64,000 nucleotides of DNA, from assembly GCA_951406725.2 (NCBI GenBank), contig OX597832.1, positions 67,456,001 to 67,520,000 on the forward strand, given 5' to 3'. Under the pieces are notes generated by a model. That model did not search any database and had not been told where the DNA came from. It was given only the letters and a program-made list of their open reading frames with translations. How positions within the stretch are numbered: the stretch's first letter is position 1; each line of letters begins with the position of its first letter. The translations under genes and the position numbers were made by a program. Shown one piece after another: positions 23,135 to 33,808 of this stretch. Source of the DNA: Octopus vulgaris. Taxonomy: Eukaryota.

Positions 23135-24756
23135 TTGCGGCCAAAATGTTCAGAACGGCATTGTTTTCATCAGAAAAGTAAGTATAAGTTTTTATCAAAG
23201 TAGTTTTATATTCTATAATTTTTACAGACAATAAATACAATATGAATTGTTATTGTGTGAGATTTTGGTGTAATTTGAGGGGTTAAAACAAAAGTTAGGG
23301 ATGATTTAGTGATTTATTGCAAGACCCATGGCGGTCAAACTGATCAGAACGGTTGAAAAAATAAAATAATCAAAAATGACAGAAAATACTGGAATTATTT
23401 AATATTTAGTGTGAAGCCCTTTAGCTTCAATCACACTCTGACATCTTTGACTGCATGAGGAAATTAAATTTTCAATTTCCTGCTGGGTGATCTTATTCCA
23501 TTCTTTCTGAAGGGCATTCCCTAATTGCTCAGTTGTTTTAGGATTTCTGGCTTTCGAACGTTCTCCTAGAATATTCGATACATTTTCAATAGGATTGAGA
23601 TCTGGGCTTTGAGCAGGCCAATCCATAACAATAACCTTTTCAGCCTTAAGGAAGTTCATGATCACCTTAGCCTTGTGACATGAGGCATTGTCCTGCATGA
23701 ATATGAGTGGTCGCTTATTTGAATTTCTCAGCACAGGCAAGACATGCTCTTTTACAAGTTGTTTATAAACTCCAGCATTTACCTTTAAATGTAATCGCAC
23801 CAAAGGGCCCACACCATCTCCAGATATCATCCCCCAGACCATGACACTTCCTCCACCGAATTTAACACTAGTCTTAAGGCATTTAGGCGACAATTTTTCA
23901 CCTACTTTTCTACGAATATACCTTTTCCTATCTGAGCCAAATAACATAAACTTAGATTCATCACTGAAATGCACCGTTTGCTATTTTTCTTGAGACCACA
24001 ACACGTGTTTGGTTGCAAAGTTAAGACGACACTTTTATTCTTGGAGCTGATCAGTGGCTTCACTGCAGGTGCTCTTGCTTGTAGGTCATGTTCAACTAAA
24101 CGACGAGACACAGTTTTTCGAGATAAAGTTTTCTTCAATACAATGCTTATTTTCCGAGAAAGAGCAGCAGCAGTTTTAAATCTGTCCTTTTTAACCAAAT
24201 TTACCATAGCACGATCTTCTCTCTTGGTCGTTTTTCTTGGCCTACCTGTAAACTTTCTTGCTTCACACGGACCACAATCATCGTAGACCATAAGAATACC
24301 GTGTACAACACTTTTTGACTTGTTAACAATCTTTGCAATAGATCCAATACTTAAATTATCCTTCCTTCGAAGCTTAATAATCTGCTGACGAATTGGTAAC
24401 GGAGTAAGTGGCATTATATTAACAAAGTACACTGCAAATATACTTACTAATGTTTAGTAAACGAACCGTCACGTAAACAAATTCAAAACATTAGAGTTCG
24501 CCGGTTAAATATACTAAGACACGGTGTAAAAGCAACCGTTCTGATCATTTTGGCCGCCATTGGTTTTGCAGTAAATCCTTAAATAATCCATAACTTTTGT
24601 ATTATCTTCTCAAATTACACTAAAATCTCAGGCAATAACAAATAATATCGTATTTAATGTCTGTGAAAATTATAGAATATAAAACAACTTTGATTAAAAA
24701 TTATATCTACTTTTCTGACGAAAACAATGCCGTTCTGAACATTTTGGCTACCATTC
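23132..24756 (-). mobile_element. Tc1-family DNA transposon (DD34E) with ~225-bp IR/DR terminal inverted repeats, TA target
   Basis: TIRs 23132-23355 and 24533-24756, each with outer and inner direct repeats (gcggccaaaatgttcagaacgg / gcggtcaaactgatcagaacgg); TA flanks; inserted in (TA)n. Confidence 0.95.
23399..24414 (-). pseudogene. Tc1 transposase with one frameshift (~24000-24030)
   Basis: N-terminal HTH and GRPR motif (ORF 23902-24432); catalytic FSDES, QDNASCH, WPAQSPDLNPIEN with 34 residues between D and E (ORF 23399-23974). Confidence 0.93.
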
Positions 24757-24904: not shown

Positions 24905-25500
24905 AGCATATTACGCTACTTTGCTATTCGGACTATTTTGTAACCGTTGTATGTTGGGCCTTATGGGTTTAATGAATAAAATTTGCACGTTTAGGTACAC
25001 TGAAATTTGATTCTGAATGGAATTTGTGAATTTTTACTTTTTTCAGCAATGGTCTCTTAATAGTATACTCGTCTTTCAAATCAGGTTCATAATTGCAGAG
25101 CTAAAGGGGGATATTCCCCCATCGTTGAAGAAATGTTAATTTCTTGGTCTGGCATGTTTCTGTCTAAAGTTTCATGTTATTTTCCTGGAGTAGACCTTCA
25201 TATACTGGAATTTCTATTTGCATTTGTGCATCAATTGTCTTCATTTCCTTCCATTGGTATTTTGTCTTGATCGTCAGAGTTGAGTTTCCATCCGGAATTG
25301 CAGACAGCCATTTGTTACCTTGATTTGTTTCGTCGTTCAGGTTCATTAGGGAAAGATTTTATTCATAATTTTGCGGGGAGGATCACTGATATTGTAGCCA
25401 ATATTTTTAGCGAAGTTTCATGTGATAAATTTGTGATCTGTGTAGTTCTGGTTTCAGGTATATATTTACATATGTATAACTATGAAATATATAATATAAT

Positions 25501-33289: not shown

Positions 33290-33372
33290 ATGTGTGTGTG
33301 TGCGTGTGAGTGCATGTGTGCGTGTGTTTTCGTGTCTCTGTATAAATATGTACATTCACACACACACATATA

Positions 33373-33742
33373 TAATCCCCACAACAATATAGCTGTTCGA
33401 TGTCACTACCGATTTAACCCCAGGCACATATAACCACCAGCAGGTTATACGTGCAGCTTGCAGCTGTATATATTGCAAGTGCTGGACCGTCGCCACTGAA
33501 GACGGGCAGTAATAGCCCGATACTGTTGTCTGCTAGAGGAAGGTAGGTGTTCTCTCTCCATGCTTGCAATATATACAGGGCGCAAGCTGCACCTATAACC
33601 AGCTAGTGGAAGACCTGCCTGAGTTTAAAACGGTAGTAACATCGAACCATCGAATAGCCATACTGATGTGGTGATTAATTTTACTTGTCAGTGTAGTAAC
33701 TAGTCTAATTTCTCATTGAGATATTCCAGCCTGTTACTTTGG

Positions 33743-33743
<1 letters not shown>
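33373..33743 (+). mobile_element. (TA)n-flanked foldback element with a hammerhead-like core in its loop
   Basis: Arms 33373-33486 and 33557-33677 are reverse complements. Loop has ctgaaga (33496-33502), c, gggc-agtaata-gccc, gata (GAAA variant), ctgttg, tc. Confidence 0.75.

Positions 33744-33808
<65 letters not shown>

What the first reader, a model, noticed from the sequence alone, without database searches (positions are those of the whole stretch)
33373..33743. Viroid-like rod: ~115-bp inverted arms enclosing a hammerhead core
Seen: a ~305-nt segment folds into one long imperfect hairpin. Its ~70-nt loop holds CUGAAGA-c-[gggc agtaata gccc]-GAUA-cuguug-UC (one change from GAAA, weak proximal stem I) plus a second small hairpin. 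A 7-nt duplication (catcgaa) in one arm marks post-insertion decay. It would be annotated as a MITE, but MITEs do not need a ribozyme. Inference: a rod-shaped retrozyme-like RNA, or an inverted pLTR product, which would also be a strong ADAR/Dicer substrate.
Basis: partly seen in the sequence, partly recalled or inferred. Interest (0 to 1): 0.72.

Follow-up and report, generated by a model that had tools for sequence, protein, structure and literature searches.

The report
Dead hammerhead retrozyme, Penelope-style inversion
The hairpin is an old, broken copy of a small non-coding jumping repeat whose family carries a standard self-cutting (hammerhead) RNA motif; this copy has lost half of that motif, and its long arms were likely made when a Penelope-type enzyme pasted it in from both DNA ends, so it is a new example of a known kind of element.

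Summary
The hairpin is real (z -11). The 'GAUA' half of the proposed hammerhead is a deletion scar. 33471-33743 (+) is a 5'-truncated copy of a ~353-nt dispersed repeat; 33373-33479 is an inverted partial copy of the same unit. The family has a canonical type I hammerhead with covarying stems (22 of 68 copies keep the core). This copy lost 19 nt: most of GAAA, stem III, the cut site and half of stem I. The family is not a MITE. Of 69 loci, 20 have an inverted arm, 24 run head-to-tail past one unit, and 3' ends cluster at two sites about 58 nt apart, often before (TA)n. That is the Penelope insertion footprint. No ORF-bearing parent, young subfamily or A>G editing excess was found. The arms decay neutrally. 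Verdict: a fossil non-LTR retrozyme, likely Penelope-mobilised. The scan already noted young families of this kind on other DNA of this genome.

The parts
33373..33479 (-). Inverted partial copy of the unit (unit positions about 186-292); its outer end lies near the family's second preferred 3' end
   Evidence: nhmmer 82 bits, E 3e-25; ends mapped
33467..33487 (.). Inversion junction. It falls in the unit's own self-complementary stem end, which reads both as the antisense arm and as the start of the sense copy; about 30 nt of the sense stem strand are missing after it
   Evidence: reading of the junction is inference from the sequence
33471..33743 (+). 5'-truncated sense copy of the ~353-nt unit, 86% identical to the family consensus, ending at the main family 3' end
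   Evidence: nhmmer 228 bits, E 1e-69; identity; end
33490..33520 (+). Surviving 5' half of a type I hammerhead: stem I 5' strand, CUGAAGA, one extra base, stem II, GA
   Evidence: sequence; alignment to family
33519..33521 (+). Scar of a 19-nt deletion (rest of GAAA, stem III, GUC cut site, stem I 3' strand), with a 2-nt GA repeat at the break
33640..33654 (+). Private 8-nt tandem duplication (CATCGAA twice): post-insertion decay
33679..33743 (+). Extension of the sense copy beyond the inverted arm's partner; equals the stretch between the two preferred 3' ends ('tail'-like)
33744..33805 (.). (TA)n target microsatellite; the left flank is (CA)n/TA at about 33356-33372; no target-site duplication can be read

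Best explanation
This is a decayed copy of a ~353-nt non-coding repeat whose family carries a canonical type I hammerhead (a non-LTR retrozyme), likely pasted into a TA microsatellite by a Penelope-like retrotransposon's enzyme acting in trans. Shown: the unit, its hammerhead, partial head-to-tail tandems, variable inverted 5' arms, two preferred 3' ends about 58 nt apart, TA bias, and loss of the ribozyme's 3' half in this copy. Inferred: multimeric transcripts self-cut at GUC, perhaps as dimers through the palindromic stem III. A Penelope RT/GIY-YIG protein cut both strands of the TA tract and primed cDNA from each end at the two internal start sites. One cDNA gave the sense arm ending at 33743 and the other the inverted arm ending at 33373. 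The two cDNAs joined where the unit is self-complementary. The long hairpin is therefore an insertion by-product that has since decayed neutrally; this copy is predicted to be catalytically dead.
For: Hammerhead in the family: each core position is conserved in 75-99% of 68 copies except the free N7 position (40%); 22 of 68 have the whole core intact. Stem pairs hold in 82% of cells against 25-40% when slid; one stem I pair is C-G in 25 and G-C in 22 of 63 copies, one stem II pair G-C in 36 and A-U in 13. A well-kept copy hits Rfam HH9 (21.5 bits, E 0.0025, below the cut-off of 52). Layout in 69 loci: 24 span more than one unit (up to 801 nt); 20 have an upstream inverted arm; 3' ends fall at unit positions 2-9 in 34 loci and 290-310 in 18; 8 of 20 inverted arms end at 292-310; 12 of 20 inversion junctions overlap by 1-38 nt. 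(TA)3 lies within 30 nt of the 3' end in 19 of 69 loci against 9% background. Young RT+GIY-YIG Penelope elements exist in this genome. PMC11167929 shows a Penelope protein cutting and extending both strands from two internal RNA start sites, which produces the tail. PMC8557442 describes partial tandems, inverted 5' copies and (TA)n bias in these elements. The window's arms are 84% alike against 78+/-4.5% for random copies, with 17 independent mismatches.
Against: No ORF-bearing element with a homologous terminal repeat was found: 0 convincing hits in 30 GIY-YIG loci (of 148 listed) and 6 extended loci. So the mobilising enzyme is inferred. The two start sites are about 58 nt apart, longer than the 30-40 bp tail in the papers. 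No long tandem array was seen (at most about 2.3 units). RNAalifold found no consensus structure on 50 decayed copies. The hammerhead fold is 3.2 kcal/mol above the consensus minimum and is not the minimum-energy fold in 4 of 4 intact copies folded. Covariation counts include shared ancestry of subfamilies. The first query ended at unit position 292, which may inflate the second end cluster. About 4 of the 20 inverted arms are short and weak.
Confidence: 0.8

Rival explanations
1. The unit is the solo pseudo-LTR of an extinct or unfound protein-coding Penelope element, not an independent retrozyme; all copies are 5'-truncated products of that element.
For: Same insertion footprint. A 2026 preprint derives animal retrozymes from pLTRs. 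Only 30 of 148 listed GIY-YIG loci were checked.
Against: The unit's 3' end joins directly to its own 5' end in 24 of 69 loci with no ORF between. No shared flank points to a parent. Only 1 of 69 loci has a Penelope fragment nearby, and it is separated by (TA)n. The ribozyme has canonical helix sizes, not the minimal PLE form.
Confidence: 0.12
2. The family is a retrozyme, but the inverted arm arose by fold-back self-priming or template switching at the unit's internal stem, or by later DNA repair, not by priming from the second DNA end.
For: The window's junction lies in the internal stem, and locus L027 overlaps there by 38 nt. PMC3846280 proposes self-priming for inverted junctions.
Against: Most junctions lie at scattered positions with 1-3 nt overlap, while the outer ends cluster at the same two sites as the sense ends.
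Confidence: 0.2
3. The 305-nt rod is itself a functional, viroid-like RNA or a selected ADAR/Dicer substrate.
For: Very stable fold.
Against: The ribozyme half is deleted. The arms show 0 G-U rescue on the ribozyme strand and 10 transversion mismatches. 49 of 69 family loci lack an arm. A>G equals T>C in the family (0.035 against 0.036, p 0.9).
Confidence: 0.04
4. It is a MITE with ~110-bp terminal inverted repeats.
For: Inverted arms with TA on both flanks.
Against: Arms are absent from most copies and vary in both ends; the element runs 65 nt past the right arm; head-to-tail tandems occur. No match to the Tc1-type transposase element in the same window.
Confidence: 0.02

Closest known systems
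Metazoan non-LTR retrozymes (PMC7229834; mussel 350-390 bp, axolotl 330/350 bp; passages and parts 2-3 of 6 read)
   Same: Non-coding unit of about 350 nt, canonical type I hammerhead, head-to-tail repeats, highly self-paired predicted RNA, co-existing Penelope elements.
   Different: Seen here only as dispersed monomers and partial tandems of at most about 2.3 units, about 85% identical to consensus. Self-cleavage and circular RNA are not shown. Stem III is longer (3-4 bp, palindromic) than the 1-2 bp described as usual. The window copy has lost the ribozyme.
Penelope-like element insertions: pLTR partial tandems, inverted 5' copy, tail (PMC8557442 passages; PMC3846280 passages; PMC11167929 parts 1-2 of 4)
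   Same: 5' truncation, partial tandems, inverted arm with 3' ends outward, two preferred 3' ends, AT-rich or (TA)n targets.
   Different: No ORF and no homologous autonomous partner found; start sites about 58 nt apart, not 30-40.
Canonical type I metazoan hammerhead (PMC4209133, part 1 of 4 read; Rfam clan CL00010)
   Same: Helix I 6 bp, helix II 4 bp, palindromic helix III, CUGANGA/GAAA/GUC core, one unpaired base before stem II.
   Different: Sits at the tip of a 46-pair G-U-containing stem in the consensus; below the Rfam gathering score.
Young 359-360-nt and ~490-nt retrozyme families noted earlier in this genome by the scan (AI notes)
   Same: Same kind of element and same two-start, TA-targeted, inverted layout, per those notes.
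   Different: No sequence match in the notes index for this family; this family looks old.

Membership tests
Non-LTR retrozyme (family level) | Canonical type I hammerhead in the unit | tested here: met
   Core intact in 22 of 68 copies; stems covary; Rfam HH9 sub-threshold hit
Non-LTR retrozyme (window copy) | Complete hammerhead in this copy | tested here: not met
   19-nt deletion; CUGA is locked in another hairpin in 79% of the ensemble
Non-LTR retrozyme (family level) | Unit of 150-450 nt without a linked retroelement ORF | tested here: met
   353-nt unit; no Penelope protein match continuous with it in 69 + 12 loci
Non-LTR retrozyme (family level) | Head-to-tail tandem repeats | tested here: met
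   24 of 69 loci span more than one unit, at most 801 nt; L121 has two consecutive units with intact core letters. No long arrays seen.
Non-LTR retrozyme (family level) | Self-cleavage and circular RNA in vivo | not testable with these tools
   Only assembled contigs were available
Non-LTR retrozyme (family level) | No LTR, PBS or PPT | not tested
   Not scanned for specifically
Penelope-type mobilisation | 5' truncation, partial tandems and inverted 5' copy | tested here: met
Penelope-type mobilisation | Two internal RT start sites (tail) | tested here: met
   3' ends at 2-9 (34 of 69) and 290-310 (18 of 69; 8 of 20 inverted arms); spacing longer than published
Penelope-type mobilisation | AT-rich or (TA)n target bias | tested here: met
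   19 of 69 against 9% background at the 3' end; 10 of 69 at the 5' end
Autonomous Penelope element (pLTR) | Terminal repeat continuous with an RT + GIY-YIG ORF | tested here: not met
   None in 30 of 148 listed GIY-YIG loci or 6 extended loci; the search was partial
MITE | Fixed terminal inverted repeats on both ends of most copies | tested here: not met
   20 of 69 loci have an arm, with variable ends
MITE | Fixed target-site duplication | tested here: inconclusive
   Microsatellite flanks hide any duplication
Viroid-like rod RNA | Whole unit folds as one rod | tested here: not met
   The circular consensus folds as a branched RNA with one ~155-nt stem carrying the ribozyme

The most novel reading that the evidence does not exclude
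The family is the fossil of a circular RNA whose hammerhead sat at the tip of a 46-pair stem. A Penelope RT copied the circle from both cut DNA ends at two fixed sites 58 nt apart, running through the religated cut site for up to 2.3 turns. The circle's own stem guided the joining of the two cDNAs, as at the window's junction. That would make RNA structure a determinant of Penelope inversion junctions.
Probability: 0.25. Interest if true: 0.5.

Novelty: new member of a known kind. Interest (0 to 1): 0.27.

Why it matters
Three paper searches found no description of cephalopod retrozymes (limited library; supplements not read). Its copies carry the two-start, both-strand footprint predicted by the in vitro Penelope mechanism, which supports trans-mobilisation of retrozymes by Penelope enzymes. 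The locus itself is a dead copy, and younger families in the same genome are better test material.

Tried and rejected
Rfam at gathering score on the whole window: 0 hits. At E 10 on the element: no hammerhead among 20 hits. Rfam on 7 whole loci was swamped by microsatellite matches; no hammerhead in the 150 of 202 rows shown. RNAalifold on 50 copies: 0 pairs. Exact search for one consensus-like core: 0 matches; a degenerate core gave 13 matches, and the 12 fetched are 80-86% identical to consensus, so no young subfamily was seen. Search for an autonomous partner: none; the Penelope fragment at L111 is a separate insertion in the same TA tract. Expression: no RNA holder listed on record. Contigs of 3 runs guessed to be RNA hold short pieces of other family copies at low depth, none spanning this locus; this is no evidence either way. 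ADAR signature in genomic copies: none overall, inside or outside the stem, and no hyper-edited copy. The raw A>G excess vanished once subfamily sites were excluded. MITE: rejected.

Full report
Observation. The segment 33373-33678 folds into one long hairpin on both strands, far beyond shuffles (+ strand z -11.0, - strand z -14.1). It lies between (CA)n/TA and (TA)n tracts. Rfam finds no hammerhead in it. It has no second copy in the window.

It is a repeat-family copy. A search of the window's genome (2.8 Gb) gave 84 matches from 40 of 457 candidates scored. Most matched only the right half, as single units. Searches with two better-kept copies gave 1914 and 1632 first-look candidates; these are not copy numbers. 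I kept 69 distinct loci of the 90 fetched, dropping 21 duplicates of the same place. A profile built from them defines a unit of about 353 nt whose 3' end joins its own 5' end. In the window, 33471-33743 (+) is a 5'-truncated copy of the unit (228 bits) and 33373-33479 (-) is an inverted copy of unit positions about 186-292 (82 bits). Copies average 85% identity to consensus, the window copy 86% (50 loci). A degenerate core pattern matched only 13 places genome-wide, and the 12 fetched are 80-86% identical to consensus. The family looks old.

The hammerhead is real in the family and broken here. The consensus has stem I (6 bp), CUGANGA, one unpaired base, stem II (4 bp), GAAA, a palindromic stem III and GUC. 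Of 102 profile hits over 100 bits, 68 cover the core and 22 keep it intact; only position N7 varies freely. On 63 of the 68 stretches (5 dropped for insertions, deletions or fold-back junctions) the three stems pair in 82% of cells, against 25-40% when slid. One stem I pair is C-G in 25 and G-C in 22 copies; such counts include shared ancestry. One intact copy hits Rfam HH9 at 21.5 bits, below the cut-off. This layout matches the canonical metazoan type I hammerhead in PMC4209133 (part 1 of 4 read). Locally, CUGA is paired in another hairpin. Against an easy reading: the hammerhead fold is 3.2 kcal/mol above the consensus minimum, is not the minimum-energy fold in 4 of 4 intact copies tried, and RNAalifold gave no pairs.

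The unit has its own stem. In the consensus a 46-pair stem with 7 G-U pairs encloses the ribozyme and folds better on the sense strand (z -9.9 against -5.2). On 50 of 55 stretches the named structure pairs in 84% of cells against 38-44% when slid, mostly by one-sided changes. The whole circular consensus is branched, not a single rod. In the window copy the 5' strand of this stem is mostly deleted, which leaves the 'second small hairpin'.

Insertion anatomy. In 69 loci, 24 span more than one unit head-to-tail (up to 801 nt), and 20 carry an upstream inverted arm with 3' ends outward, about 4 of them short and weak (the profile count gave 15 and 21). Sense 3' ends fall at unit positions 2-9 in 34 loci and 290-310 in 18; 8 of 20 inverted arms end at 292-310 and 2 at 6-9. 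The window copy uses one site at each end. Twelve of 20 inversion junctions overlap by 1-38 nt; the window's falls in the unit's self-complementary stem end. (TA)3 follows the 3' end in 19 of 69 loci against 9% background. My first query ended at position 292, which may inflate the second cluster. The idea of two fixed starts came from earlier scan notes and was tested here.

Mechanism. These features are the published Penelope footprint: partial tandems, an inverted 5' copy, a tail and (TA)n bias (PMC8557442 passages; PMC3846280 passages). A purified Penelope protein cuts and extends both strands and starts RT at two internal RNA sites, the gap between them being the tail (PMC11167929, parts 1-2 of 4). 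I infer that both ends of a cut TA tract primed cDNA on the unit RNA and that the two cDNAs joined at the stem. The genome holds young 781-aa RT + GIY-YIG elements, but none of 30 of the 148 listed GIY-YIG loci, nor 6 extended loci, shares the unit. The enzyme is therefore inferred. Whether the template was a circle or a multimeric transcript is open.

The long rod is not under selection. The arms are 84% alike, against 78+/-4.5% for pairs of 67 other copies. They differ at 17 positions: 10 transversions, 7 that would be G-U on the - strand and 0 on the ribozyme strand. Family-wide A>G equals T>C at 261 conserved sites (0.035 against 0.036). Sequencing-run data were contigs only and say nothing on expression or editing.

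Comparison and novelty. It works like, and at family level meets the sequence tests of, a metazoan non-LTR retrozyme (PMC7229834, passages and parts 2-3 of 6); cleavage and circles are untested. A 2026 preprint already argues that such elements derive from Penelope pLTRs (10.64898/2026.07.22.740005, part 1 of 5 and passages; its species table was not seen). Paper searches found no cephalopod retrozyme report; the taxon is my inference, and unread supplements could list one. The scan has noted young families of this kind elsewhere in this genome but none matching this sequence. Verdict: a new but fossil member of a known kind; interest 0.27.

Noticed in passing
window 23399-24453 (-): Tc1/mariner-type transposase split over two frames (Pfam HTH_Tnp_Tc3_2 and DDE_3); unrelated to the finding.
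   Followed up: partly
window 25041-25277 (-): Weak match (E 8e-5, 29% over 83 aa) to the upstream ORF of the genome's young Penelope family.
   Followed up: no
L091-L095 (e.g. G000:C16:20835500-20842500): Young Penelope family with a 781-aa RT + GIY-YIG frame, preceded by a second long overlapping frame with no Pfam hit; no hammerhead found next to the ORF by my regex.
   Followed up: partly
L082:97-203 (-) = L096:2090-2196: A different hammerhead-like unit with similar layout (CUGAUGA, 4-bp stem II, GACA for GAAA), just outside the inverted end of a truncated Penelope copy.
   Followed up: partly
L072:2817-3239: Another inverted-arm element (arms 90-95% alike) with a hammerhead core in its loop, inserted in (TA)n right after a Penelope copy; a younger analogue of the window's structure.
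   Followed up: partly
L111:1500-2965: A Penelope 3' fragment and a copy of this family sit in the same (TA)n tract, consistent with shared targeting.
   Followed up: yes
L003:1461-1520, L007:1500-1545: Other copies have lost the same stem III/cut-site region by similar short deletions; possibly a recurrent hairpin-deletion hotspot.
   Followed up: no
window 33373-33678: All 7 transition mismatches between the arms give G-U on the - strand and none on the + strand; small numbers, noticed after the fact, unexplained.
   Followed up: no
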